Below are positions 1-48,572 of a stretch of 64,000 nucleotides of DNA, one piece after another (the first letter of the stretch is position 1; every line of letters begins with the position of its first letter). Under the pieces are notes generated by a model that was not told where the DNA came from, ran no database searches, and saw only the letters and a list, made by a program, of their open reading frames with translations. Source of the DNA: Candidatus Nanoarchaeia archaeon. GTDB lineage: Archaea > Nanobdellota > Nanobdellia > SCGC-AAA011-G17 > GW2011-AR17. The stretch is from the NCBI GenBank assembly GCA_028706745.1, contig JAQTVM010000007.1, positions 7,008 to 71,007 of the forward strand, written 5' to 3'. A program made the translations under genes and the position numbers.

Positions 1-416
1 TGCTCCCTTGAATACTGCCGGTAAAGCTCAGGGTCAAACCCGTACAGGGCAATTGATTTTTTGTTTATTGATTTTGCCATTGTAATCGCGGCGGGCTCAA
101 AATCAGTCACAATTATGTCCGGATTGAACTTCTTTATCTCTTTCTTAAGCCTAAAAGTCGTGAAAAGCCACACAAACGGCAGCATATAATTGTTTGCAAT
201 GAAAGAGCCGAGCGTAAACCTCATTTCCCTGCCCGGCATCCTGTATCCTGATATCTTGATTGTCCTGTACTTGCCTTTAAAGTAATCTAAAGAACAGTCA
301 TAGCCTGCAATAAGAAACTTTGCTTCAGGCTCCTTCTTAAGTATTTCATCAATGACAGCGTGCACTCTTGTAGCGTCCCCGTATCCGATGCCTGTCACGA
401 AAAATAATATCCTCAC
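1..416 (-). CDS. glycosyltransferase, N-terminal part only (gene runs off window start; GTG start at 414-416)
   Basis: minus-strand translation from 416 reads (M)RILFFVTGIGYGDATRVHAVIDEILKKEPEAKFLIAGYD..., a GT-B-like N-terminal domain; directly abuts the stop of the upstream PIG-L gene (operon-like). Confidence 0.5.
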   Translation of the reverse strand, partial: MRILFFVTGIGYGDATRVHAVIDEILKKEPEAKFLIAGYDCSLDYFKGKYRTIKISGYRMPGREMRFTLGSFIANNYMLPFVWLFTTFRLKKEIKKFNPDIIVTDFEPAAITMAKSINKKSIALYGFDPELYRQYSRE

Positions 417-1058
417 TTATCTCACCTTGTAAAACTTCTCGGCATACTTGCAGCTGTTCTTGCTTCCGTAATATCTTGTCCTGAGCCAAACCGGAATCTT
501 CAAGGCAGAAAGCCACTGCCACTGGCTTGAAAACTGCTTTATGTACTGCATTTTCTTCTTATAATAAGGGGTGATATCGACATACATCACAGGCTTGTTT
601 TCCTTGATAATATTCCATACTTCAAACTCATAAACAGCATATTTTTTCCTTGAAGAATCAATTGCCTTAAGCACATTCCTGTTTACAGCCTGATGGTCAG
701 GATGCGGGTCAATCGAGGAAGTTACAAAAATTCTTTCAGGTACATATTCATTCAAAAGCTGTTTTATTTTATTCACCGCGTTTATCTTTTCAGCATCATC
801 CTTTACTTTTGTGTCGCGCATTCCCCAGAATATTGTCTTTGCAATCCCTATGCTCCTGCTTGCTTTTTCTGTCTCCTCCAGTCTCCTGTTTATGACTATG
901 TGCTCCTGAAAATGCGGATGGCTGCTTTCTCCGAAAGAGAATACCACCTTGATTACCTTAACACCTTCTGCAGCATACTTTGCAATTGCGCCGCCCATTC
1001 CGACTGCCTCATCATCAGAATGCGCGCAAAAAATCAGGATTGTTCTTTCTTTTGGCAT
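417..1058 (-). CDS. PIG-L/LmbE family N-acetylglucosaminyl deacetylase
   Basis: 213-aa ORF; N-terminal motif ILIFCAHSDDEAVGMGG (AHPDDE-like) and His-rich HPDH motif typical of LmbE/PIG-L. Confidence 0.8.
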   Translation of the reverse strand: MPKERTILIFCAHSDDEAVGMGGAIAKYAAEGVKVIKVVFSFGESSHPHFQEHIVINRRLEETEKASRSIGIAKTIFWGMRDTKVKDDAEKINAVNKIKQLLNEYVPERIFVTSSIDPHPDHQAVNRNVLKAIDSSRKKYAVYEFEVWNIIKENKPVMYVDITPYYKKKMQYIKQFSSQWQWLSALKIPVWLRTRYYGSKNSCKYAEKFYKVR

Positions 1059-1100: not shown

Positions 1101-2087
1101 CTATGCCAGGATAATATCCTCGCAGCAATAGCCTTTTTTCTGCAATTCATCCCTTATCATGCCCTGCCTTACAATATCTTTCTCAAGAAGCTCTGCCCAA
1201 AGGCAGATATCCGCAAATATTGACGGAAACCCCTTTCTGCTTATTTCCGCAATAGTCGGACCAAGCGAATAAAAAAGAGGAGTAAGAATATCAGGCTCAA
1301 GCCTCTGCTTAAGGTAAAAGCAGGCTTCAATTGTCCTGTCAAGCCCTGCAAAAACAGGCTTCACTGAATTTTTCAGCTTTCTCTTTCTTAATGAAGATGC
1401 AGGCCAGCTATTATTGGCAAAGGAGCATATTGTTTTTATCTCAGCATTCCAGTAATTTGTCTTAAGCGTTTTTTTCAGGGATTCCTTTTCCCAGTTATCT
1501 ATTATGTAAGCGTGCATCTCATCAATAAACGTGTATTCGCATCTTGCCCTTAATTCATCATCAGAATAATTTATTTGCGCGCCATAACTGTCAATAAAAC
1601 AGCAGTTGCTTGAATAAAGCTGCCTGTTTGCATGAATCGCCTCGTGAGCGTATATTCCCTGTCCGCTTCCAAGCGTAAATCCGAATGCGGAATAATCAAG
1701 CTCACGCGGCCAATCCCCTAAAAAATACCCTGCAGGGACAAACATTCCGCAAGCCCACTTTTCCCATTCAAGCTTTTTCAAAAGCGTTTTCCATTTTTTC
1801 TCAGGCAGCACAATGCCGAAAAGAAAGCTCATTATTGCGTGCTTTCTTTCAAACGGCAGATAATTGCTCTCGATGTGCAGGGAAGAATAACCCGAAAAAT
1901 GCCCTGCTTTCAAAACTTTTTTTCCCTTGTACCTGTTCATTGCATCGGCAAACTCCTGAGAGAAATCCTTTGTCAGGGATAATTCGCGCGTGCGATTGAA
2001 CATTTTGCCATAAAGCTGAATAACATCATCCTTATGCTTAAGGTTTTGTTCAATGCAATTGAAAAGCCTTTCTTCAAGCGAAGGCAT
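1101..2087 (-). CDS. hypothetical HEXXH zincin-like protein (tandem paralog 1)
   Basis: 328-aa ORF containing HEAIH; C-terminal ~100 aa alignable by eye with the next ORF (…LRKRKLK…ILTPLFYSLGP…LQKKGYC…). Confidence 0.6.
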   Translation of the reverse strand: MPSLEERLFNCIEQNLKHKDDVIQLYGKMFNRTRELSLTKDFSQEFADAMNRYKGKKVLKAGHFSGYSSLHIESNYLPFERKHAIMSFLFGIVLPEKKWKTLLKKLEWEKWACGMFVPAGYFLGDWPRELDYSAFGFTLGSGQGIYAHEAIHANRQLYSSNCCFIDSYGAQINYSDDELRARCEYTFIDEMHAYIIDNWEKESLKKTLKTNYWNAEIKTICSFANNSWPASSLRKRKLKNSVKPVFAGLDRTIEACFYLKQRLEPDILTPLFYSLGPTIAEISRKGFPSIFADICLWAELLEKDIVRQGMIRDELQKKGYCCEDIILA

Positions 2088-2127
2088 ATAATTTATACGG
2101 GTTAAGCGTATATATACCTTTGCAGGG

Positions 2128-3111
2128 CTAGAACAACGGATTTTCAGGGCAGTAGCCTTTTTTCTGAAGCCTATCCCTTATTGCCGGAATGGATATTCTT
2201 TTTTGCGAAACACACCTTTCCCAAAGCAGGATATCTCCGAAAGGGGAATAGAATCTGCTGTTTTCAATGTCTTCTGAAGCGGGCCCTATTGAAAAAAGCA
2301 AGGGGGCAAGAATATCAGAAGGCAGCTGCTCTTTCAGCTTATAAGCAGAGATGACAGCACATCCAATTGTATTTTTAACAGGCTCAAGAATCTTTTCAAA
2401 CTGCTTTCTTTTTTCAGCTTTCTGCTCATCAGTAATCCCCCTGTAGATTCCTGAAAAAAAATCAAGCTTTGCCTCAAAATAATGCTCTTTTATTGCTTTT
2501 TCAACATTCTCTTTTTTAAAATCCTCGGCAATGAAGCAAAGTATTTCCTCAGTAAAAGAAATCTCTGCCAGTGACTGCCATCTTGAATCAGGATAATCCG
2601 CATCATAGTCAGGCACCAGCCTGTTTCTATAATCCGCAGTGTAAAATCTCCTGTCGCAGTGCATTGCCTCGTGCTTAAACCTGCCTTTCTCCTGCTCAAT
2701 TGCCAGCCCGAATTTGCTTAAGTATAAGCGGTTGTGGTAAAATCCCCTGAAGTTTGAAGGCGTAAAATACAGCCCGCCGTACCATTCCTTGCCGTCAACC
2801 TTGGGCATAAGCGCTGCAAATTTTTCCTTTGGAAGCTCAATGTCAAAAAGGAATGTTTTTATGCCGTGCCTCTGCTCATACTGCTGAACCTCTGTTTTTG
2901 CATGAAGAATTCTCATGCCTTCAAAATCAGACGGAAGAATGCCGTTTCTTTTTTCAGATATGTTAAGCGCAGTGGCAAGCTCATTCTCAAAGTGATTATG
3001 ATATGAATAGTCCCGCATGAAATCTATTGAATTGCCGTATTCCTCAATCACTTCGTCCCTGTGCTTAAGGTTAGCATCAAGGCAGTGCATAAGCTGCTCT
3101 TCAAGGCCCAT
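2128..3111 (-). CDS. hypothetical HEXXH zincin-like protein (tandem paralog 2)
   Basis: 327-aa ORF with HEAMH; N-terminus MGLEEQLMHCLDANLKHRDEV parallels MPSLEERLFNCIEQNLKHKDDV of paralog 1. Confidence 0.6.
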   Translation of the reverse strand: MGLEEQLMHCLDANLKHRDEVIEEYGNSIDFMRDYSYHNHFENELATALNISEKRNGILPSDFEGMRILHAKTEVQQYEQRHGIKTFLFDIELPKEKFAALMPKVDGKEWYGGLYFTPSNFRGFYHNRLYLSKFGLAIEQEKGRFKHEAMHCDRRFYTADYRNRLVPDYDADYPDSRWQSLAEISFTEEILCFIAEDFKKENVEKAIKEHYFEAKLDFFSGIYRGITDEQKAEKRKQFEKILEPVKNTIGCAVISAYKLKEQLPSDILAPLLFSIGPASEDIENSRFYSPFGDILLWERCVSQKRISIPAIRDRLQKKGYCPENPLF

Positions 3112-3161
3112 TTATAGAAAGGTAATGAATTAGAGAATATAAATGTTATTATAAAAAAAAA

Positions 3162-3446
3162 TTATTGCCCTTCAACTTTGGTTTCAAGGCCGCCTAAGGC
3201 AATATCTTTAAGCGCTTTTTGATTTGCGCACAAATTCTTAGAACTTTTGCCGGAAATATATCCACCTATAATCCCGGATGCAGCTGCAACAAATGCCCCT
3301 ACATAGTCCCTATTAGAAACGCACTCCAAAGCCAATACAGTGGAACCGCCAATTATCCCAAATCCGACAGCAAGATAAGTTACTGCAGAGTCAATGGCAT
3401 TGTCTATTTTATAAACCAATTTCATTTTTTCTTCATCCATTTTCAT
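3162..3446 (-). CDS. small membrane protein, glycine-zipper-like
   Basis: 94-aa ORF with two hydrophobic G-rich segments (GFGIIGG, GIIGGYISG). Confidence 0.4.
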   Translation of the reverse strand: MKMDEEKMKLVYKIDNAIDSAVTYLAVGFGIIGGSTVLALECVSNRDYVGAFVAAASGIIGGYISGKSSKNLCANQKALKDIALGGLETKVEGQ

Positions 3447-3451
3447 TCCCC

Positions 3452-4804
3452 CTAATAATATATCCTTTCCTCTATCGGCTCAAGTGGATAATCCTCGCCC
3501 CTTACCCTTCTGAAGGCAATAAGAAGCCCGACAATAATCAGGATTACAACAAGCCCTATGAAGATTATCTTAAGAGTGTCATCCTCAAGCGAAAAGAAGC
3601 TCTTCTTAACCTCAGGCTCTTCAACGCCGAGCGAAAGCGACAATTCCTTGTAAAGCTTGTCTCCGTTCATTACCCTTAGTGTAAACTGGCTGACCTTCAG
3701 CTCTGCATCTGACTTGGGCTTTGCATAAACATAAACATCCGCCTTCTGCCCGCCCTCGATTGTAAGGGTGCTTGGGTCAATCCTTATGTCAGCAAACAAT
3801 TGCGCGCCTGCCGCTGACAATGTAATGTCCCTTGATTCTGATGCGAGGTTTGAAATTGTAAGCTTGTATGCTGTTTCCCTGCCTATTGCAATGTGCTGAG
3901 ACATTGTGTCAAAAGCAAGCGTAAGCTCCTTTGAAGGGTCAACAGGCTTTGTTTCAATTACAGGAATCTGCGCTCCTTCTTCTTCTTCTTCAACAGCCTC
4001 TGCTTTTGCTTCAACGCCTCTTATGTTTATTGTTGTCCTGACAACCTGTGTATCGCGCTCGTTATTGTATGCAATTCCAACCTCAAGCTCGTATTCTCCT
4101 GAAGCTGCATCTTTTGGAATTGGAAGGTATAAAATTGCTGTCTCGCTGTCTTCCTCATCATCGCCCGGAATCTCGGTTTCAACAAGCTCTATCCACTCAA
4201 CATCATAAACCTTCAGCTTGTCAATTGCAGCAACAACCTTTACATTGTTCTCGTCCCTTGCGCCAATATTCTGAAGCCTTACCTTGACAGTCGCTGTCTG
4301 CCCTGCCTCAACATAAGGTGTTGGAACAACAACACCCTTTATTTCAAGAAGGTGTCTTGAAGGTATTACATTCAAGTTAAGCTGTGTCTCGACAGTAGGC
4401 TCGTTAGCGCTTACTACACGAATAGACAATTTGTAATCTCCTTCCTCCAAATCATTTGGAAGCTCAAGTTCAAGCGTTCTTTGGTATCTTGTCCCCGGAA
4501 TTCCGGGCCTGAGGGTAAACATGCCTGAAGAAACGCGGACATCTTCATCCCCTTCATATCCGCCGATTTCAGCCCAAATTTTTACATCGCATTCACTTGT
4601 AAGAGCTTCGTTTGTCAAAAGCTCAACGCTGATATCCAATGTTGTCCCTCTTTCAACAGAGATATAATCATTATATCCTGCGTTTGAAATGTCATTCACA
4701 GTTACATCGCTAATCCAGAAACCGGATGCGCTTGCTGATACTGCGAAAGCAGATACTATCGCGGCTAAACATAATACCATCATGGCTATTTTTGATTTAT
4801 TCAT
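3452..4804 (-). CDS. secreted cell-surface protein with C-terminal membrane anchor (CARDB/Ig-like repeats likely)
   Basis: 450 aa; N-terminal signal peptide MNKSKIAMMVLCLAAIVSAFAVSASA; acidic linker EEEEEG; C-terminal TM IIFIGLVVILIIVGLLIAF followed by RRVRGED. Confidence 0.7.
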   Translation of the reverse strand: MNKSKIAMMVLCLAAIVSAFAVSASASGFWISDVTVNDISNAGYNDYISVERGTTLDISVELLTNEALTSECDVKIWAEIGGYEGDEDVRVSSGMFTLRPGIPGTRYQRTLELELPNDLEEGDYKLSIRVVSANEPTVETQLNLNVIPSRHLLEIKGVVVPTPYVEAGQTATVKVRLQNIGARDENNVKVVAAIDKLKVYDVEWIELVETEIPGDDEEDSETAILYLPIPKDAASGEYELEVGIAYNNERDTQVVRTTINIRGVEAKAEAVEEEEEGAQIPVIETKPVDPSKELTLAFDTMSQHIAIGRETAYKLTISNLASESRDITLSAAGAQLFADIRIDPSTLTIEGGQKADVYVYAKPKSDAELKVSQFTLRVMNGDKLYKELSLSLGVEEPEVKKSFFSLEDDTLKIIFIGLVVILIIVGLLIAFRRVRGEDYPLEPIEERIYY

Positions 4805-4944: not shown

Positions 4945-5823
4945 CTAAGCAGTAAGTTTCCCGTTGATAAGAATGGGCAGGCAGTAGCTTTTCCATATCT
5001 GTTTTCCGCCCAAATAAGGCAATAATGGGTGCTCTTTCATCAAAGCCCCCATATCGTGCTTATACTGCTTTGCAAGCATGAAACCTGCCAGCGAAGGGAG
5101 GCGGTAAAGTGTTTCCTTAACATCTTTCTGCCTTTCCTCTTTTGATTTGCCCGGCTGAAAATATGCTTTTGCGTTTATTGTTTCTTCAAGGCAAGGCATG
5201 AATTTGTTCAATTCTTTGCCCAAAAAATGGCTCTGCCCGAAGGGAGGAAAGAACTCATCCATTTCAACAGTAAAATTTTCTATTTCAAGGCATTTTAGGG
5301 CTGAATGAATCTTGTGTCCGAAATAGGATGAATATCCGTTAAAAGAGGCAACACTTTCTTTTTCAACTAAAATCTCATCATCTGCTACCTGCACAATGGA
5401 ATGCGTAACCTCCTCAGGCATTGCAAAAGGATACCACCAGTTGGACAAGGCCTGCCTGTTTAATGCAACCAGATTATAATACCGGCTGTAAGCGCCCATT
5501 GTTTCAATTTTCATAAACTCCACAAATAAGTCATTCTTGCATTCAGGGGAAATTCCTGAAGGCATTGATTTAAATCCTGCAAAAAATTTTGCCTTTCGAA
5601 GAATTGAAGAAAAGATTCCTTTTTTGCCGTCATAATTTATATTGAACACAGCCAAAGCAGGCTTTCCCCTTATATCCTGCCTTGAAAACAATTCAGAAAG
5701 AATTTCCCATTTTTCAGACATGTCCTCATACAATTCCTGTACTGATGCTGTCTTTATGTCCATAGGCGCAGAAATTGAATAAGCATATATAAATCTATTT
5801 CTTAAGCTCTGTAAATCCCTCAA
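4945..5823 (-). CDS. hypothetical protein
   Basis: 292-aa ORF with no recognised motif; overlaps the end of the upstream PIN gene by 29 nt (operon-like). Confidence 0.55.
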   Translation of the reverse strand: MRDLQSLRNRFIYAYSISAPMDIKTASVQELYEDMSEKWEILSELFSRQDIRGKPALAVFNINYDGKKGIFSSILRKAKFFAGFKSMPSGISPECKNDLFVEFMKIETMGAYSRYYNLVALNRQALSNWWYPFAMPEEVTHSIVQVADDEILVEKESVASFNGYSSYFGHKIHSALKCLEIENFTVEMDEFFPPFGQSHFLGKELNKFMPCLEETINAKAYFQPGKSKEERQKDVKETLYRLPSLAGFMLAKQYKHDMGALMKEHPLLPYLGGKQIWKSYCLPILINGKLTA

Positions 5824-6550
5824 GCTTCAGTATTGCGTCTATCTCTTCTGTTGATATTGCGCAGCCCCTTAATCTCAAGCCCCAGAGAACGCCGTCAAGA
5901 ACATTCAGCTTCGGGTCAGCAACATACTTTTCCTCTCCTGAAAGAGCATACCTGTCAAAAAGCCCCATTTCGTATGCAATCACGCCAAGCTCTGAAGAGC
6001 GAAGAACAGGAAGATTGTTTACCTTTTCCTGAAATTTTCTAAGGCTGTCCCTGTTTATTGTAATGGGGGTGTGGAGCTTTACCTCAAGCAGGTCGGCAAG
6101 CTTCTGCGGCTCTTCAATAAGCGTTCTTGTTGTCCTTTCATCAATGACAACTGCGTCAGAGTCAAGCAGCCTTGCCATTGCAATCGCGCCTAACTCCCCT
6201 AAATGCGCTATCTTTATATAATTGCCGCGCGCCATGAAAATTGAGTTTGCAGTTGCAGATAATTCGCTTATCTCCTTCTGCACTTCCTCGTTGTGGTCAA
6301 AGATTTCGATATTGTTTTTTGCAACCTCGGAAAGAACCTGCATTGCCTCCAGCTTGAATCTCTTGGACTGAAGGGGCGTGTCAATAATCTCTGCCTTTAC
6401 AGAGCCGGGAATATAAAAATGCCCCTTGAACTGTTTTTTCAGGTCGCCTATAACCCACAAAAGGCTGTTTGAGGCAAGGCTGATTATTGCGCTTGTGTCA
6501 AACACAAGGCTCCTGTCCCTTGCTTTTAATTTTACTTTCTTCTTTGCCAT
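5795..6550 (-). CDS. PIN-domain protein (DUF3368-like, putative toxin)
   Basis: 251 aa; N-terminal LVFDTSAIISL PIN signature; follows a UPF0175-like gene with a 2-nt gap. Confidence 0.65.
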   Translation of the reverse strand: MAKKKVKLKARDRSLVFDTSAIISLASNSLLWVIGDLKKQFKGHFYIPGSVKAEIIDTPLQSKRFKLEAMQVLSEVAKNNIEIFDHNEEVQKEISELSATANSIFMARGNYIKIAHLGELGAIAMARLLDSDAVVIDERTTRTLIEEPQKLADLLEVKLHTPITINRDSLRKFQEKVNNLPVLRSSELGVIAYEMGLFDRYALSGEEKYVADPKLNVLDGVLWGLRLRGCAISTEEIDAILKLEGFTELKK

Positions 6551-18489: not shown

Positions 18490-19944
18490 ATGAAGATAAA
18501 GACAATACTGGCATTTATGGCTGTTTTTGCCCTGATGGCGGCTTTTGCAAGCGCAAGGTTTGAAGATTTGGAAATAACAGGGCCGGGAATTGAGCAGGCA
18601 GCAGCAGGCTCAACAATTAAAGTTATTCTCACAATAAACAACAAGGGAAGCGATAACCTCATTCTTGGAGTTAGCAGGGACCCGTTTGCAACGCTTGAGT
18701 CAAGCTGGTTTGAATCGATAATGTTCAGCCCAAACACGTTCAAGCTTGACGGATTGGATTCAAGAGAGCTTGAAATAAGCATAAAATTCAAGAAAACAGT
18801 CCCGACTGACAGCACATACCAGACTGCAATAACATTCTACCAGCTGGACAAGCCCGAGCTAAAAAAAGATTTTAACCTGATGATAAGGGCTGTATCTCCT
18901 GAAAACATACTTAAGGCAAAGATAGAAGCAGACGAGATGGTAATGCCCGGCAAGAATTACAAGGCAAAAATCACAGTTGAAAACAACCTTAATGCTGTTC
19001 TCCCTGAGTCAGAGATTGTTGTTGCAAGCGAGCTTTTTGAGGAAAGAAGAAGCATAATCCTTACCCCCTGGCAGGAGAGGGCAGAAACATTTGAATTTCC
19101 AATCAAAGACAATGAAAAACCCGGAGCATACACTGCAAGCATCAGGGTTTATTATGACAAGCAGCTTGTGTCAAAAAAAGAAGTTGATTTCACAGTCACC
19201 ACTGTTTCAGACGTGGGCGGAGACGAGCAGATTGAGGAAGGTTTCCTATGGAAAAGAATCAGCGTGACAAGGCAGGGAAGCGGAAACACCCCCACTGAAA
19301 CAACATACAGAAAAACGCTCAGTTCATTTGAAAAATTGTTTGCATCATACAGCCCTGAGCCGACTGAAGATGAAGGCGACTCGCTTAAATGGGCGCTTAC
19401 TGTAAACCCGGGCACAACGCAGAAAGTCATAATCACAATCAATTACAGGCCGGCATTCTGGGCAGCGCTTGCAATAATAGCATTCACAGTGTTCGCGCTT
19501 TTTATATTCAGAAGGGGAGTTTCACTGAAAAAAGAGATTATTTCCCACAAGACAACGCACGACGGCTTTACAGAGATAAAGGCAAGAATCCACATAAAGA
19601 ATCATGACAAGAAGTATTTGCATGATGCAGTATTGATTGAAGTGCTGCCCCACCATATGCACCCAAAGATGGAGTTCTCAACTCTTCATCCGGAGGCGGT
19701 TGAAAAAGGAGAAAAGGGAATAAGGATAAGGTGGCACCTTGACAAGGTTGCAGGGCACGAGGAAAGAATCATAACTTACACTGTCCTTACAAAAATCGGG
19801 ATAATCGGCGACATTGAGATGCAGCCAACATTATTAAGATACAAGTCAAAGGAAGGAAAAGTGATAAGCGTTAAGTCAAACAAGGTTTCTTTTATTTCAG
19901 GGCACAAAGACATTGCGCCAAAGCACAAGATTGAGCATCTCTAA
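18490..19944 (+). CDS. secreted surface protein with TM anchor and C-terminal cytoplasmic domain
   Basis: 484 aa; signal peptide MKIKTILAFMAVFALMAAFASA; TM AFWAALAIIAFTVFALFIF followed by RRG. Confidence 0.7.
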   Translation: MKIKTILAFMAVFALMAAFASARFEDLEITGPGIEQAAAGSTIKVILTINNKGSDNLILGVSRDPFATLESSWFESIMFSPNTFKLDGLDSRELEISIKFKKTVPTDSTYQTAITFYQLDKPELKKDFNLMIRAVSPENILKAKIEADEMVMPGKNYKAKITVENNLNAVLPESEIVVASELFEERRSIILTPWQERAETFEFPIKDNEKPGAYTASIRVYYDKQLVSKKEVDFTVTTVSDVGGDEQIEEGFLWKRISVTRQGSGNTPTETTYRKTLSSFEKLFASYSPEPTEDEGDSLKWALTVNPGTTQKVIITINYRPAFWAALAIIAFTVFALFIFRRGVSLKKEIISHKTTHDGFTEIKARIHIKNHDKKYLHDAVLIEVLPHHMHPKMEFSTLHPEAVEKGEKGIRIRWHLDKVAGHEERIITYTVLTKIGIIGDIEMQPTLLRYKSKEGKVISVKSNKVSFISGHKDIAPKHKIEHL

Positions 19945-19954
19945 TAAAATATTC

Positions 19955-21058
19955 TTAATCCAGTAAGCAGTCGTATTTTCCCTCAAACAAGTCACTGTAA
20001 ATCCTGTTTCCGTGCTTGAACTCAGCTATTTCAACCATTGATGCGCCGCAGAAATAATTGAAGTTGGAGGATTTTTCCATTTTCTCTTTCGACTCATTCA
20101 TATCAAGGGCAAAAGGGTGATAAGCCCATAATTGCAGGTCCTGTCCAAAGCACCTGCAGAGCATTGCAAATGATTTAAGAGAACGGCGGTATCTTTCCAT
20201 GGAGGCGTATGCTGCAAGCTCCGTGTGCTGAGTTATTTCGTGCATTTTCATTATTTTTGCAGCAGCAGCGGTTGCAATGCCTTCTTCAAGAAAAGATACA
20301 TCCGTGGAAAATCCTGACTTGAATCGCATGTTATGAGTGTATTCGTGAAACACTATGGATACTGCGCTCGCGCTCCATTCAGGAGAAACATATATCTTGT
20401 CTGAAATATCAGGAGGAATTGCAAATCCGGCTGTATTTCTCAAACGCAGGTAAGAAGCAGCGAATGCAGCGGCTGAAAATGCAGCTGCAGGTATTGCGCC
20501 GGCCGCAGCTGATAATGCAATGCCGGCGCCTGCGGCAAGTGAAAAGCCCGAAACTATTGCACCTAGAACAAAAGCAGCGCCAATGACAGGCTTTACAAGC
20601 TCGTATGCAACCATTGGTTTTGATTCCATAACCTTAATCTCAGGCTCTTTCAAAAGAGAGATTCCTGTTAACTCATTGAAAAAAGGCTTTGCATTGGAAA
20701 GAATGCCTGCATATTCCTCTTTTGTTCTTACCATATAAGCCGGAAGAGAAGAATAAAGCATTCTTTCAAGGCGATTATAATTCTTCAATGTGCCTATTAA
20801 CGATTCCCCTGCGTTTTGGTAAGGCTCATTGTTTCTTGCTCCTGAAAGCAAGTATCCGGCATCATTGAACTCATCAAAAGCAAACCTTGCGAGATACTCG
20901 AGGTTATTTGGATTTTTAACAAAATTTTGCTTCAGAAGCTTTGCTTTTTTTTCGCATTCTTTCAGGCGCTTCTTAAGAGCCCTCAATTCCCCTTTTTCCA
21001 TGCAATAAGGTATTGATTCGGATATTATAAATGCTTCTAAAATTGCCATATTCCGCAA
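19955..21058 (-). CDS. membrane-associated HEXXH zincin-like protein
   Basis: 367 aa; poly-Ala/Gly TM region then IVFHEYTHNMRF (HEXXH). Confidence 0.6.
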   Translation of the reverse strand: MRNMAILEAFIISESIPYCMEKGELRALKKRLKECEKKAKLLKQNFVKNPNNLEYLARFAFDEFNDAGYLLSGARNNEPYQNAGESLIGTLKNYNRLERMLYSSLPAYMVRTKEEYAGILSNAKPFFNELTGISLLKEPEIKVMESKPMVAYELVKPVIGAAFVLGAIVSGFSLAAGAGIALSAAAGAIPAAAFSAAAFAASYLRLRNTAGFAIPPDISDKIYVSPEWSASAVSIVFHEYTHNMRFKSGFSTDVSFLEEGIATAAAAKIMKMHEITQHTELAAYASMERYRRSLKSFAMLCRCFGQDLQLWAYHPFALDMNESKEKMEKSSNFNYFCGASMVEIAEFKHGNRIYSDLFEGKYDCLLD

Positions 21059-29950: not shown

Positions 29951-30589
29951 TTACCAAAATCTTCTCTTGTATAACTCTATCGTATCCCTCGTATCTTCGT
30001 CAAAATCCTGAAAATCAGAGCAGAAAACCTCCGGAAACATTATTGAAGAGGGTTTTTCAGAATGCCCTGCATAAAACATGTGCGCAATCTCGTGAATAAG
30101 AAGATATTGCGTGCAGTCGCCCCAAAAGGGATTTACCCTTACAATCCTTGCAACAAGATTTGAGTCAGCGTCGTTAATGCGCCCGTTGCTGTATGCCTTG
30201 TGCGTAAAGACAAGCTCAAAATCATCAGCATCTGAAATCCTGTCAGCAAGCGCCCCGCTTTCTGTCAATTCAGGAATTTCCACATTGCCCCTGCAGTATG
30301 GAACAAGATTAATGCCGAATTCTCCCCTATATTTTTCTTTTGCAAATTCAAAAGCTGCAAGTGATTCCCTTCTTTCATTTTCAGGTATCTCATTGCCGAA
30401 ATAAATCCCTATGCTTACATCCCTTATCTCATTCCTGTCAAACGGAAAATTAATGCCTGAGGCATTGCAGTAAACAGAGTTTGTCAGGATTTGATTGCCG
30501 TAATAAGAATTGTCAAATGCAAAAACACCGGCGGCAGCCATAGAACCGGCAAGAGCAATACAAAGCCCAAGCCTTGGTTTTTTAGCCAT
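29951..30589 (-). CDS. secreted zinc metallopeptidase (HEXXH…H)
   Basis: start at the internal Met MAKKPRLGLCIALAGSMAAAGVFA (signal peptide); LIHEIAHMFYAGH zinc motif. Confidence 0.65.
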   Translation of the reverse strand: MAKKPRLGLCIALAGSMAAAGVFAFDNSYYGNQILTNSVYCNASGINFPFDRNEIRDVSIGIYFGNEIPENERRESLAAFEFAKEKYRGEFGINLVPYCRGNVEIPELTESGALADRISDADDFELVFTHKAYSNGRINDADSNLVARIVRVNPFWGDCTQYLLIHEIAHMFYAGHSEKPSSIMFPEVFCSDFQDFDEDTRDTIELYKRRFW

Positions 30590-30707
30590 ACCTCTCAATG
30601 AGAGGTTATATCTGTGCAGTATATAAATATTTGTTAAAAAAGGGGCTGAATGCAAAAAGACAGCATAAGGCAAAAGGTATAAAAGCAAAGAAATGGCTTA
30701 AATTACC

Positions 30708-47113: not shown

Positions 47114-47145
47114 AGGTTATATACCATTCCCCTTACTAATTCATT

Positions 47146-48279
47146 ATGAACGGAAATGTCCATATTGGAAAATTGTTCGGCATTAAGATAAACCTGCATT
47201 ACACATGGTTCCTTGTGTTCTTTTTGCTTGCGTGGGCTCTTTCCTCAGGATATTTTCCAGAAAGATTGCCTGGCAAAGAGGCTTATGTCTACGGCATATT
47301 AGGGGCTCTTGCATCACTGCTTCTTTTTGCGTCTGTCCTGCTACACGAATTAAGCCACAGCCTTGTTGCATTGAAGAACAAGATAAAGGTAAGCAGCATT
47401 ACCCTGTTTTTCTTTGGAGGCGTTGCGCAGGTAAATGAGGACAATTTTACCCCGAATAAAGAGCTGAAGGTTGCAATTGCAGGGCCCATTATGAGCTTAT
47501 TCCTTGGAGGATTGTTTTTTGCGCTTTCAAAATTTTCAGGAGTTTACATCGGGGCTGTTTTTGGATATTTGGCGTTTGTTAATCTTATCCTTGGCGGATT
47601 TAACCTCGTTCCGGGATTTCCATTGGACGGCGGACGGGTGCTAAGAGCGATATTATGGAAGAAGTGGGGCGACATAAACAGGGCAACCTATGTTGCTGCA
47701 GAAGGCGGCAAGATGTTTGCAATATTCCTCATTATAATAGGCGTATTAGGAATATTTTTCGGAAGAATTGACCTCTGGTACATACTGCTTGGATTATTCC
47801 TTTATTCAATCGCAAAAAACAGCTACAAGCAGACTGTTGTAAGCAACATTCTGAAAGAATCAAAAGTCAAGGAATACATGCAGACAAAGTACAAGGCGCT
47901 TGACGCTTCAATGCCTGTTTCAGGGTTTGATTTCAAGAAATTAATGAGCTATGACCAGTGGGTTTATCCTGTATTGTCAGGCAAGAAGGTTATCGGCGTT
48001 GCACTGCAGCAGCAGATTGAAAAAGCAAAGGCTGCTGACGGAACAAGGAAGATTCTTGAGGTCACAATACCCATCCACAAGATAAAATCAGTTTCTCCCG
48101 AGGACACCTGCATAAAAGCATATGAGCTTATGATTATGCAGAGGATTGAGTTATTGCCTGTAATTGCAAATGGCAAAGTGGCGGGCGTAATAAAGGCAGC
48201 CACGCTGAATGAGCTTTTCAGCATGGCGGCTGTGAAGGCAGACGCTGAAAACAAGGCAAAAAGAAAGATTAAGCAATAG
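47146..48279 (+). CDS. site-2 protease (M50) with C-terminal CBS domains
   Basis: 377 aa; HELSHS zinc motif in a TM helix, LDGG motif, tandem CBS-like C-terminus. Confidence 0.8.
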   Translation: MNGNVHIGKLFGIKINLHYTWFLVFFLLAWALSSGYFPERLPGKEAYVYGILGALASLLLFASVLLHELSHSLVALKNKIKVSSITLFFFGGVAQVNEDNFTPNKELKVAIAGPIMSLFLGGLFFALSKFSGVYIGAVFGYLAFVNLILGGFNLVPGFPLDGGRVLRAILWKKWGDINRATYVAAEGGKMFAIFLIIIGVLGIFFGRIDLWYILLGLFLYSIAKNSYKQTVVSNILKESKVKEYMQTKYKALDASMPVSGFDFKKLMSYDQWVYPVLSGKKVIGVALQQQIEKAKAADGTRKILEVTIPIHKIKSVSPEDTCIKAYELMIMQRIELLPVIANGKVAGVIKAATLNELFSMAAVKADAENKAKRKIKQ

Positions 48280-48390: not shown

Positions 48391-48397
48391 TTTTAAT

Positions 48398-48492
48398 GGG
48401 CCTTTAGCTTAGCCTGGCTAGAGCACTCGACTGATATCAAGCATGGCTTGGAAGAAATCGAGAGGTCGCGGGTTCGAATCCCGTAGGGCCCA
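48398..48492 (+). tRNA. tRNA-Ile (anticodon GAT) with an ~20-nt anticodon-loop intron
   Basis: GGGCCTT acceptor, anticodon stem CTCGA…TCGAG with CTGATA then inserted sequence, T-arm GCGGGTTCGAATCCCGT, 3' AGGGCCCA. Confidence 0.7.
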
Positions 48493-48572
48493 TTTCTTAA
48501 TTTTAATTGCTTGAAATAAAAATAGAGATTAGCAAACAGGATAGCCCTGCGGGTATGAACGCAGTGAATACA

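What the first reader, a model, noticed from the sequence alone, without database searches (positions are those of the whole stretch)
1101..3111. Tandem paralogous HEXXH proteins next to a PIG-L deacetylase, with a third HEXXH relative at 19955-21058
Two adjacent ~327-aa ORFs share N- and C-terminal blocks and a central HEA[IM]H motif. A membrane-associated protein further along (19955-21058) carries HEYTH after a poly-Ala/Gly TM segment. None of the three matches a metallopeptidase family I can name from sequence alone. Tandem duplication of a zincin-like gene suggests diversifying function, for example substrate or immunity specificity.
Basis: seen in the sequence. Interest (0 to 1): 0.55.

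Follow-up and report, generated by a model that had tools for sequence, protein, structure and literature searches.

The report
Orphan HExxH protein pair in DPANN archaeon
Two neighbouring genes of a tiny symbiotic archaeon encode old, diverged copies of an undescribed protein family, found so far only in named DPANN archaea, that carries the metal-binding signature of zinc proteases, matches no known family or solved structure, and is repeatedly kept as tandem arrays of 2 to 8 copies.

Summary
The two tandem ORFs are real paralogues: 1101-2087 and 2128-3111, minus strand, 328 and 327 aa, 31% identity, E 6e-60. Both carry HEA[IM]H. The "third relative" at 19955-21058 also has HEXXH but is not homologous. 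It looks like a separate MA-clan-type gluzincin candidate (HEYTH-x16-EEG).

The A/B family is very small: 68 cluster representatives among 1.84 billion proteins. Every named member is a DPANN archaeon. It has no Pfam, NCBIfam, PHROGs or PDB-sequence match. A confident AlphaFold model (pLDDT 90.6) has no significant Foldseek match in PDB or BFVD.

HExxH lies at the start of a helix that follows a three-strand unit. The next helix holds two conserved Glu (+32 and +38). 51 of 65 aligned members keep HExxH. One single clade lost both His together.

The family recurs as co-oriented tandem arrays of 2, 3, 6 and about 8 old copies, all with the motif intact. Twice it overlaps a known peptidase gene (M29, TldD/PmbA).

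The parts
1101..2087 (-). Gene A, 328 aa. Soluble HExxH protein, identical to NCBI PHO02_03045 'hypothetical protein', Candidatus Nanoarchaeia archaeon.
   Evidence: ORF. 100% match to P0001. No TM segment (max Kyte-Doolittle 19-residue mean 0.92). AF2 model pLDDT 90.6, pTM 0.89.
2128..3111 (-). Gene B, 327 aa. Paralogue of A, identical to NCBI PHO02_03050.
   Evidence: ORF. 31% identity to A, E 6e-60. 100% match to P0010. Belongs to a separate B clade in the NJ tree.
1632..1646 (-). HEAIH of A (H148, E149, H152): putative two metal ligands plus the catalytic base.
   Evidence: Translation checked. Invariant in alignment A1. H/E/H kept in 51/58/51 of 65 sequences in A2. Lies in helix 145-158, directly after strand 137-141.
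1518..1538 (-). E184 ... E190 of A, on the helix that follows (176-196): candidate third metal ligand and partner residue.
   Evidence: Translation checked. Both invariant in A1. E184 is kept in 55 of 65. E190 is E in 52 and D in 10 of 65.
2659..2673 (-). HEAMH of B (H147, E148, H151).
2545..2565 (-). E183 ... E189 of B, equivalent to E184 and E190 of A.
2043..2045 (-). N15 of A: the most conserved residue of the whole family (62 of 65), kept even in the His-less clade.
   Evidence: The model has an isolated beta-bridge residue at 16 and another at 159, so N15 may sit at the C-terminal end of the HExxH helix (inference).
2109..2116 (-). TATATATA element 22-29 nt upstream of A's ATG: possible archaeal TATA box, so A may have its own leaderless transcript.
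   Evidence: Sequence read. Function is inferred only.
3137..3143 (-). TTTATAT element 26-32 nt upstream of B's ATG: possible archaeal TATA box.
   Evidence: Sequence read. Function is inferred only.
417..1058 (-). PIG-L family deacetylase, a syntenic neighbour. The next gene (glycosyltransferase, begins about 415 and runs off the left edge) starts right at its stop codon.
   Evidence: Pfam PF02585, E 1.7e-23. GT N-terminus read. Order B-A-PIG-L-GT is conserved in L001, L002 and L005; L003/L004 keep the order with an extra copy and a 101-aa gene inserted.
19955..21058 (-). Protein C: a separate membrane-associated HEXXH protein, NOT homologous to A/B. HEYTH at 20333-20347, then EEG 16 residues on (20279-20287).
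   Evidence: Its family has only 3 proteins. All three weakly hit DUF2268 or PF10023 'Aminopep' across the HEXXH region (E 0.06-0.16).

Best explanation
A and B are two anciently separated paralogues of an undescribed family of soluble proteins of about 320 aa, known so far only from DPANN archaea.

Proposed mechanism (inferred):
- The conserved core is a small three-strand unit, then a helix that starts with HExxH, then a helix with conserved Glu. This forms a gluzincin-type mononuclear metal site.
- H148 and H152 bind Zn2+.
- E149 activates the water.
- E184 is the third ligand. It is the less tolerant of the two Glu while the His are present, and the more freely lost once they are gone.
- E190 and Y158 support the site.
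- The strand just before the helix (137-141) pairs with a peptide substrate.

Proposed role (inferred):
- The proteins are cytosolic metallohydrolases, most likely peptidases acting on oligopeptides or proteins.
- The family is repeatedly kept as co-oriented, often overlapping tandem arrays of old, divergent but catalytically intact copies. A and B are the two-copy case.
- The copies therefore probably differ in substrate specificity, or assemble as hetero-oligomers.

Shown here: paralogy, motif conservation, secondary-structure order, tandem arrays, restricted distribution and absence of known homologues.
Inferred: metal binding, the identity of the third ligand and peptidase activity.
For: Paralogy and age:
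- A and B share 31% identity, E 6e-60.
- Each has its own orthologue clade. The three-copy locus L003 has members on both sides of the split, so the duplication predates that split.

Motif:
- H148, E149, H152, E184 and E190 are invariant in 21 close sequences.
- They are kept in 51, 58, 51, 55 and 52 (+10 D) of 65 sequences that are only 14-25% identical to A across the more distant members.
- All 13-14 members without the His form one clade. In it both His are replaced together, E190 becomes D and E184 decays. These residues therefore behave as one functional unit.

Structure:
- The AF2 model has pLDDT 90.6.
- Element order is strand 91-94, helix 96-106, strand 114-117, strand 137-141, helix 145-158 (HExxH), helix 176-196 (E184, E190).
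- This is the order of the minimal zincin scaffold: a three-stranded sheet, an N-terminal subdomain with HEXXH and a C-terminal subdomain with the third ligand, as defined in PMC3890501.

Arrays:
- 2 copies in the window, L001, L002 and L005. 3 in L003/L004. 6 in L015, five of them overlapping by 8 nt. About 8 in L016.
- Copies within an array are 29-49% identical and all keep HExxH and both Glu.

A/B divergence:
- 13 of 23 residues fixed differently in the A and B clades fall in residues 91-189, around the site (p = 0.008).

Gene context:
- An M29 aminopeptidase gene overlaps the start of B's orthologue in L001-L004.
- A PmbA/TldD gene overlaps the start of P0040 in L017.
- A proteasome beta-subunit gene is adjacent in L010/L011.

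Prior:
- About half of all HExxH occurrences lie in known zincin domains (abstract of PMC3650047).
Against: - No profile search links the family to any zincin or any other family. Pfam on all 65 members gave only scattered single hits (best zincin hit MPTase-PolyVal, E 0.009, in 1 of 65, which is within expectation for 65 searches). NCBIfam and PHROGs gave nothing. PDB sequences gave nothing with either family profile.
- Foldseek with the full model found nothing significant in PDB (best E 0.54) or BFVD (best E 0.67). The core-only model also found nothing (best E 3.6). Zincins appear only in the noise: BlaR1 E 6.2, CapP E 7.4, SprT-like E 2.4, FtsH E 4.3.
- No coordinates were available, so it was never checked that E184 or E190 lies near the two His.
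- The Glu-helix motif (E-x4-[DEN]-E) is not one of the classical gluzincin signatures (ExxxD, NExxSD, EG).
- A whole clade works without the His, and N15 is more conserved than HExxH, so the fold has some function independent of the metal site.
- Gene context is not conserved across the family.
Confidence: 0.5

Rival explanations
1. It is a metal-dependent enzyme but not a peptidase. For example, it could be an amidase or deacylase acting on a glycan, lipid or nucleotide-linked substrate, working with the neighbouring PIG-L deacetylase and glycosyltransferase in cell-envelope biogenesis.
For: - The order S-layer-like protein, (M29), B, A, PIG-L, GT, 268-aa protein, methyltransferase is conserved in all close relatives.
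- The HExxH + Glu chemistry would serve any amide hydrolysis.
- No peptidase family matches.
Against: - Distant family members have no PIG-L or GT nearby.
- In the window A, B and PIG-L each have their own AT-rich upstream element, while PIG-L abuts the GT.
- The only overlapping (translationally coupled) partners seen are peptidase genes: M29 and PmbA/TldD.
Confidence: 0.15
2. It is mainly a non-catalytic binding or scaffold protein, for example an adaptor or chaperone. The HExxH holds a structural metal or is a relic, and paralogue arrays diversify binding partners rather than substrates.
For: - One clade, including a Woesearchaeota protein, lost both His yet keeps N15, K105, F122, G136 and the C-terminal LTPLLFSxGPT and KGY motifs.
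- N15 (62 of 65) is more conserved than HExxH.
- The fold is mostly helical with no enzyme match.
Against: - Outside that one clade, HExxH, including the non-ligand Glu that serves only catalysis in zincins, is kept through very deep divergence.
- It is kept in every copy of every array examined.
- Loss of catalytic residues in a subclade is common in real enzyme families. For example, 80 of about 500 mini-zincin homologues lack the motif (PMC3890501).
Confidence: 0.15
3. A and B, and the longer arrays, are subunits of one obligate hetero-oligomeric peptidase rather than independent enzymes of different specificity.
For: - The A/B pair is retained together in at least six contigs.
- Array genes overlap by 4-8 nt, which implies co-translation.
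- A recent survey reports an archaeal 'dark' zincin whose metal site is completed across a dimer interface (PMC13607799).
- From general knowledge, TldD/PmbA is a precedent for paralogous peptidase subunits.
Against: - Copy number varies (1, 2, 3, 6, about 8), which does not fit a fixed stoichiometry.
- Many lineages have a single copy.
- A and B appear to have separate promoter-like elements.
Confidence: 0.12
4. The HExxH is a chance motif with no functional meaning.
For: - The expected chance frequency is about 1-3% per protein.
- No homology to zincins was detected.
Against: - The motif is kept at the same alignment column in 51 of 65 proteins that are 14-25% identical to A across the more distant members, together with two Glu on the next helix.
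- It was lost only once, as a block.
Confidence: 0.02

Closest known systems
Minimal gluzincins / mini-zincins (MEROPS M95 proabylysin-projannalysin; DUF1025 mini-zincin, PDB 3E11, 4JIU)
   Same: - HEXXH sits at the start of a helix preceded by a small three-stranded sheet.
- The third ligand is expected on the next helix.
- Both are prokaryotic, soluble and of unproven activity.
- Some homologues have lost the motif (PMC3890501).
   Different: - A and B are three times larger, with about 85 N-terminal and about 130 C-terminal helical residues that carry their own conserved motifs.
- There is no sequence or Foldseek similarity.
- The Glu-helix motif is E-x4-[DEN]-E, not the known signatures.
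M48/M56 gluzincins (HtpX, Ste24, BlaR1) and IrrE/ImmA-like zincins (CapP)
   Same: - HExxH plus a downstream Glu tens of residues away.
- BlaR1 (8exp_A, TMq 0.36, E 6.2) and CapP (7t5t, E 7.4) were the only enzymes of related chemistry in the Foldseek noise list for the core model.
   Different: - Those hits are not significant.
- A and B have no TM segments.
- There is no Pfam match to M48, M56 or M78.
TldD/PmbA (M103) paralogue pairs
   Same: - Cytosolic metallopeptidase built from paralogous proteins encoded side by side (general knowledge).
- A PmbA/TldD gene directly overlaps a family member in L017.
   Different: - Different fold and motif (HExxxH, in one subunit only).
- No homology.
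- Here every copy keeps the motif.
Clostridial neurotoxin light chain / NleD-type effector zincins (M27, M91)
   Same: - From memory only: the extended motif HELIHxxxxLY of BoNT/A has the same spacing as the family consensus HE[AL][LI]Hx4[LF]Y. In BoNT the third ligand Glu lies about 35 residues on, against +32 here.
- Those families also diversify as effector paralogues.
   Different: - There is no detectable sequence or structural similarity. All PDB sequences, including BoNT, were searched with the family profile, as were all PDB chains by Foldseek.
- No secretion signal is present.
- The resemblance is a lead, not a test.
DUF2268 / PF10023 'Aminopep' / Peptidase_MA-like gluzincins (relevant to protein C only)
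   Same: - C has HEYTH-x16-EEG, which resembles the HEXXH-x18-E(G) signature of M1-type gluzincins (general knowledge).
- All three members of its family give weak hits to these Pfam models over exactly that region.
   Different: - The hits are below threshold (E 0.06-0.16).
- C has a Gly/Ala-rich hydrophobic region.
- It is unrelated to A/B.

Membership tests
Zincin metallopeptidases (MEROPS clan MA) | HEXXH motif located on an alpha-helix (the active-site helix) | tested here: met
   HEAIH 148-152 lies in predicted helix 145-158. It is invariant in A1 and kept in 51 of 65 sequences in A2.
Zincin metallopeptidases (MEROPS clan MA) | Third metal ligand (Glu, His or Asp) C-terminal to HEXXH, in the C-terminal subdomain and facing the two His | tested here: inconclusive
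   Conserved E184 (+32) and E190 (+38) lie on the next long helix. They co-vary with loss of the His. No coordinates were available to measure proximity.
Zincin metallopeptidases (MEROPS clan MA) | Zincin fold: mixed beta-sheet of at least 3 strands plus backing and active-site helices, with structural similarity to known zincins | tested here: inconclusive
Zincin metallopeptidases (MEROPS clan MA) | Sequence or profile similarity to at least one clan-MA family | tested here: not met
   Pfam on 65 + 10 members, NCBIfam, PHROGs and PDB sequences with profiles A1 and A2 gave nothing above noise. As a positive control, the same Pfam search finds M50 at 2.7e-22 in this window.
Zincin metallopeptidases (MEROPS clan MA) | Zinc binding and peptide-bond hydrolysis | not testable with these tools
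   This needs biochemistry.
Classical gluzincin subclan MA(E) signatures | Glu-helix motif such as ExxxD / NExxSD / (N/E)EG | tested here: not met
   The family consensus is E-x4-[DENS]-E-[IL]-x-A-[YF]. There is no ExxxD or EG.
   BLASTP gives E 0.19 on an irrelevant patch. hhalign of A2 against C gives probability 0.4%. The A2 HMM finds only A and B in the six-frame ORFs of the window.
DUF2268 / Peptidase_MA-like (protein C only) | Pfam match above the gathering score | tested here: inconclusive
   E 0.06-0.16 and 12-13 bits against cut-offs of 23.6-25, but recurrent in all three homologues over the HEXXH-EEG region.
PIG-L (neighbouring gene 417-1058) | Pfam PF02585 match above the gathering score | tested here: met
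   84 bits against a cut-off of 28.2, E 1.7e-23.

The most novel reading that the evidence does not exclude
The family is a new metallohydrolase fold, or a zincin core so remodelled that it is unrecognisable, confined to DPANN archaea. Its tandem arrays of 2-8 divergent, catalytically intact copies would be a specificity battery used at the symbiont-host or symbiont-virus interface, for example proteases that process scavenged host proteins or disable host or viral factors. Members of the L016 clade carry a disordered N-terminal extension with conserved QP[KR]LF[DE] and PLYLE motifs, which could be a targeting or docking signal.
Probability: 0.12. Interest if true: 0.8.

Novelty: new variant of a known kind. 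Interest (0 to 1): 0.5.

Why it matters
DPANN archaea have very small genomes and depend on hosts for building blocks. Even so, several lineages keep between two and about eight old copies of this protein side by side. That level of investment suggests an important, lineage-specific function.

If the proteins are zinc peptidases, this would add a new family, and possibly a new structural variant, to the zincin superfamily. It would also point to how these symbionts digest or manipulate proteins.

The family is also a clean example of confident "structural dark matter": pLDDT 90 with no Foldseek neighbour in the PDB. It has a testable active-site hypothesis in H148, E149, H152 and E184.

Tried and rejected
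Fold searches:
- I re-predicted only the putative catalytic core (A residues 84-224, pLDDT 75.7), hoping for a cleaner Foldseek hit to zincins. Nothing significant was found.
- Foldseek against BFVD found nothing significant.

Sequence and profile searches:
- Scanning every one of the 65 members, plus 10 array copies, against Pfam for a recurrent weak zincin hit found none.
- I tested whether the conserved 292-aa neighbour (4945-5823) is a hidden family member. It is not (hhalign probability 0.1%).
- I tested whether C is a family member. It is not.
- I looked for the syntenic M29 aminopeptidase elsewhere in the window. It is absent.
The scan with A1 returned only 3 close loci, so taxonomy rests on the few named proteins.
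- Cluster look-ups for 30 distant members gave names for only a few: Woesearchaeota, Aenigmarchaeota or plain 'hypothetical protein'.

Literature:
- Searches for a prior description found none.
- The archaeal dark-matter zincin in PMC13607799 (UPI00355F993C) could not be compared because no sequence or supplement is held.

Rejected ideas:
- A functional operon A-PIG-L. The link is not family-wide and the genes have separate upstream elements.
- A recent amplification. Array copies are only 29-49% identical.
Full report
**Observation**

The region holds two same-strand ORFs. A is 1101-2087 (-), 328 aa. B is 2128-3111 (-), 327 aa. They are separated by 40 nt. They align over their whole length at 31% identity and 54% positives, E 6e-60. 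HEAIH is at A148-152 (window 1632-1646) and HEAMH at B147-151 (2659-2673); the translations were checked. The next gene downstream, 417-1058 (-), is a PIG-L family protein (Pfam E 1.7e-23).

The ORF at 19955-21058 (-) does contain HEYTH (20333-20347) after a Gly/Ala-rich hydrophobic stretch. However, it is not related to A/B. BLASTP finds nothing. The 65-member family profile aligns to it with 0.4% probability. An HMM of the family finds only A and B in the window.

A bare HExxH is expected by chance in about 1-3% of such proteins. The window contains five HExxH ORFs: A, B, C, a bona fide M50 site-2 protease and a sub-threshold matrixin-like protein. The motif alone means little, so conservation has to carry the argument.

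**Source and family**

A and B are identical to PHO02_03045 and PHO02_03050, hypothetical proteins of a Candidatus Nanoarchaeia MAG (72-kb contig). The word-indexed search of 5.8 billion proteins returned only 9 and 12 relatives, all Nanoarchaeota or Nanoarchaeia. An exhaustive HMMER search with the 21-sequence alignment A1 against 1.84 billion cluster representatives found only 68 proteins at E <= 0.001 (48 at <= 1e-10). The few that carry organism names are Woesearchaeota and Aenigmarchaeota. All named members are therefore DPANN archaea. The unnamed ones sit among archaeal housekeeping genes.

No member matches any curated family:
- Pfam on A, B and then on all 65 aligned members plus 10 further array copies.
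- NCBIfam.
- PHROGs.
- PDB sequences, searched with single sequences and with both profiles.

The single best zincin hit is MPTase-PolyVal, E 0.009, in 1 of 65 members. That is within expectation for 65 searches. The same Pfam search does recognise real zincins in this window (M50, 2.7e-22), so the negative result is informative.

**Conservation**

In A1 the invariant residues include H148, E149, H152, E184 and E190, together with N15, L16, N51, F90, K105, F122 and Y212.

In the 65-sequence alignment A2 the more distant members are only 14-25% identical to A. Retention there is as follows:

| Residue | Kept (of 65) |
|---|---|
| H148 | 51 |
| E149 | 58 |
| H152 | 51 |
| Y158 | 54 |
| E184 | 55 |
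| E190 | 52 E + 10 D |
| N15 | 62 |
| G136 | 62 |

The 13-14 sequences lacking the His replace both at once ([FY]-E-x-L-[YQ]). They change E190 to D and partly lose E184. They form a single clade in an NJ tree. H148, H152 and the two Glu therefore behave as one functional unit that was discarded once. This is what is expected of a metal site, and such losses occur in real zincin families (PMC3890501).

**Structure**

AlphaFold2 on A1 gave a confident model of A (pLDDT 90.6, pTM 0.89). It is mainly helical with three short strands. The order around the motif is:
- strand 91-94
- helix 96-106
- strand 114-117
- strand 137-141
- helix 145-158 (HExxH at its start)
- helix 176-196 (E184, E190)

This is the order of the minimal zincin scaffold as described in PMC3890501: a three-stranded sheet, an N-terminal subdomain bearing HEXXH and a C-terminal subdomain bearing the third ligand.

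Fold membership could nevertheless not be demonstrated:
- Foldseek of the full model against the PDB gave no match better than E 0.54.
- Against BFVD the best was E 0.67.
- A separately predicted core (residues 84-224, pLDDT 75.7) gave a best E of 3.6.
- Zincins occur only in the noise lists: BlaR1 (TMq 0.36), CapP, an SprT-like protein and FtsH.
- The tools return no coordinates, so the proximity of E184 or E190 to the His pair was not measured.

**Paralogy and arrays**

The A and B clades are distinct, each with its own orthologues. Both genes are present side by side in at least six contigs. A more distant Nanoarchaeota lineage (L003/L004) has three tandem copies. Two of them fall on the B side and one on the A side of the tree, so the A/B split is older than that divergence.

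Two unrelated contigs show larger arrays:
- L015 (a 231-kb NCBI contig) has five copies that overlap each other by 8 nt, plus a sixth copy 2.6 kb upstream.
- L016, an 8.2-kb contig, consists of about eight copies in a row, one of them split.

Within arrays the copies are 29-49% identical, and every intact copy keeps HExxH and both Glu. These are therefore old, maintained, catalytically intact paralogues, not recent amplifications. Other lineages have a single copy.

Between the A and B clades, 23 positions are fixed differently. 13 of them lie within residues 91-189, the strands, the HExxH helix, the following loop and the Glu helix. About 7 would be expected (binomial p = 0.008). This pattern fits divergence of the substrate-binding surroundings.

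**Context**

In the close relatives the gene order is: Translin, PHP..., PIN-like, 270-aa protein, S-layer-like protein, M29 aminopeptidase, B, A, PIG-L, glycosyltransferase, 268-aa protein, methyltransferase.
- The M29 gene overlaps the start of B by 4 nt in L001-L004.
- M29 is missing from L005 and from the whole window. In the window a 94-aa two-TM ORF occupies that slot.
- PIG-L is followed immediately by the glycosyltransferase, which starts at PIG-L's stop.
- A, B and PIG-L are each preceded by an AT-rich TATA-like element about 22-32 nt upstream of the ATG (function inferred).

Distant members have no PIG-L or GT nearby.
- P0040 starts on the last base of a PmbA/TldD peptidase gene.
- P0041 lies next to a proteasome beta-subunit gene.
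- Other members sit among unrelated housekeeping genes.

The PIG-L adjacency is therefore lineage-specific synteny. The only recurrent tight coupling is to peptidase genes, which is weak but independent support for a role in proteolysis. A and B have no signal peptide or TM segment (maximum 19-residue hydropathy below 1), so they are presumably cytosolic.

**Interpretation**

The most likely reading (about 0.5) is a new, DPANN-restricted family of gluzincin-like metallohydrolases, probably peptidases.
- H148 and H152 would be the metal ligands and E149 the general base.
- E184 is the more likely third ligand. It decays once the His are lost, whereas E190 only softens to Asp, which suggests a structural role for E190.
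- Y158 would be a helper residue.
- Tandem paralogues would provide different specificities or form hetero-oligomers.

The rivals are:
- A non-peptidase hydrolase tied to the PIG-L/GT genes (0.15).
- A mainly non-catalytic binding protein (0.15). The His-less clade and the super-conserved N15 show that the fold has a metal-independent role.
- An obligate hetero-oligomer (0.12, overlapping with the main reading).
- A chance motif (0.02).

**Protein C**

C belongs to a three-member family. Its HEYTH is followed 16 residues later by EEG. All three members hit DUF2268 or PF10023 weakly over that region. It is best regarded as a separate, membrane-associated MA-clan-type gluzincin candidate.

**Comparison with known systems and novelty**

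The family works most like the minimal gluzincins, or like M48/M56-type enzymes, in its proposed chemistry. It meets only the motif-level criteria of clan MA. Profile similarity was tested and not met. Fold similarity and third-ligand geometry are inconclusive. I therefore do not file it as a member of any MEROPS family.

An extended-motif resemblance to BoNT and NleD (HELIHxxxxLY) is recalled from memory. It is not backed by any search, because all PDB sequences and chains were covered.

No paper in the library describes the family. One 2026 survey mentions an archaeal dark-matter zincin completed across a dimer (PMC13607799), but its identity with this family could not be checked.

I rate the finding a new variant of a known kind, with interest about 0.5. 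It is a well-defined orphan family with a clear, testable active-site hypothesis and an unusual tendency to form paralogue arrays in genome-reduced symbionts. It has no demonstrated activity and an unresolved fold assignment.

Noticed in passing
window 29954-30697 (-): A 248-aa ORF with HEIAHMFYAGH followed by SSIMFP, which resembles a metzincin HExxHxxxxxH motif plus a Met-turn. Pfam Peptidase_M10 (matrixin) scores E 0.0018, below the cut-off.
   Followed up: partly
window 47140-48276 (+): A bona fide site-2-protease-type zincin (Peptidase_M50, 2.7e-22) with a CBS domain. It served as a positive control showing that Pfam does detect zincins in this genome.
   Followed up: partly
window 48397-48493 (+): ARAGORN reports a 97-nt 'tRNA-???' with an odd anticodon call, 5 nt after tRNA-Asn. 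It may be an intron-containing archaeal tRNA.
   Followed up: no
window 3162-3446 (-): A 94-aa ORF with two hydrophobic segments and no family match. It occupies the slot where close relatives (L001-L004) have an M29 aminopeptidase gene overlapping the start of B. No M29 gene exists anywhere in the 64-kb window.
   Followed up: partly
L016:1-8225: An 8.2-kb metagenome contig consisting almost entirely of about eight tandem copies of the family, one of them split into two ORFs. The copies are 40-49% identical. They carry disordered N-terminal extensions with conserved QP[KR]LF[DE] and PLYLE[YF] motifs, absent from A and B.
   Followed up: partly
L015:1410-9696: Six family copies in a 231-kb archaeal contig. 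Five are in a row and each overlaps the next by 8 nt. Identity is 29-44%, and all have an intact HExxH.
   Followed up: partly
L017:6397-8975: Family member P0040 starts on the last base of a 534-aa PmbA/TldD-family peptidase gene. This is a second independent case of translational coupling to a peptidase, after M29.
   Followed up: partly
proteins P0048-P0055, P0060, P0062, P0067, P0070, P0074, P0085 (e.g. L006:7001-8011): One monophyletic clade, including a Woesearchaeota protein, has replaced both His of HExxH ([FY]ExL[YQ]) and changed E190 to D. It keeps N15, K105, F122, G136 and the C-terminal motifs. These are probably pseudo-enzymes or repurposed proteins.
   Followed up: partly
window 3452-4804 (-) and 18490-19944 (+): Two large proteins with a signal-peptide-like N-terminus and a TM segment towards the C-terminus; the first has weak Ig-like/CARDB-type Pfam hits, the second none. 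They are probably S-layer or surface proteins. The first is part of the conserved synteny block upstream of B.
   Followed up: no
window 4945-5823 (-): A 292-aa protein (TTG start in the ORF list) with no family match. It is conserved at 56% identity in L001 as part of the same synteny block and overlaps the end of the PIN-like gene at 5795-6550. It is not related to the A/B family (hhalign probability 0.1%).
   Followed up: partly
window 2040-2045 and 1611-1616 (A residues 15-16 and 158-159): In the AF2 model the only isolated beta-bridge residues are 16 and 159. If they pair with each other, the most conserved residue of the family (N15) sits against the C-terminal end of the HExxH helix, next to Y158.
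   Followed up: no
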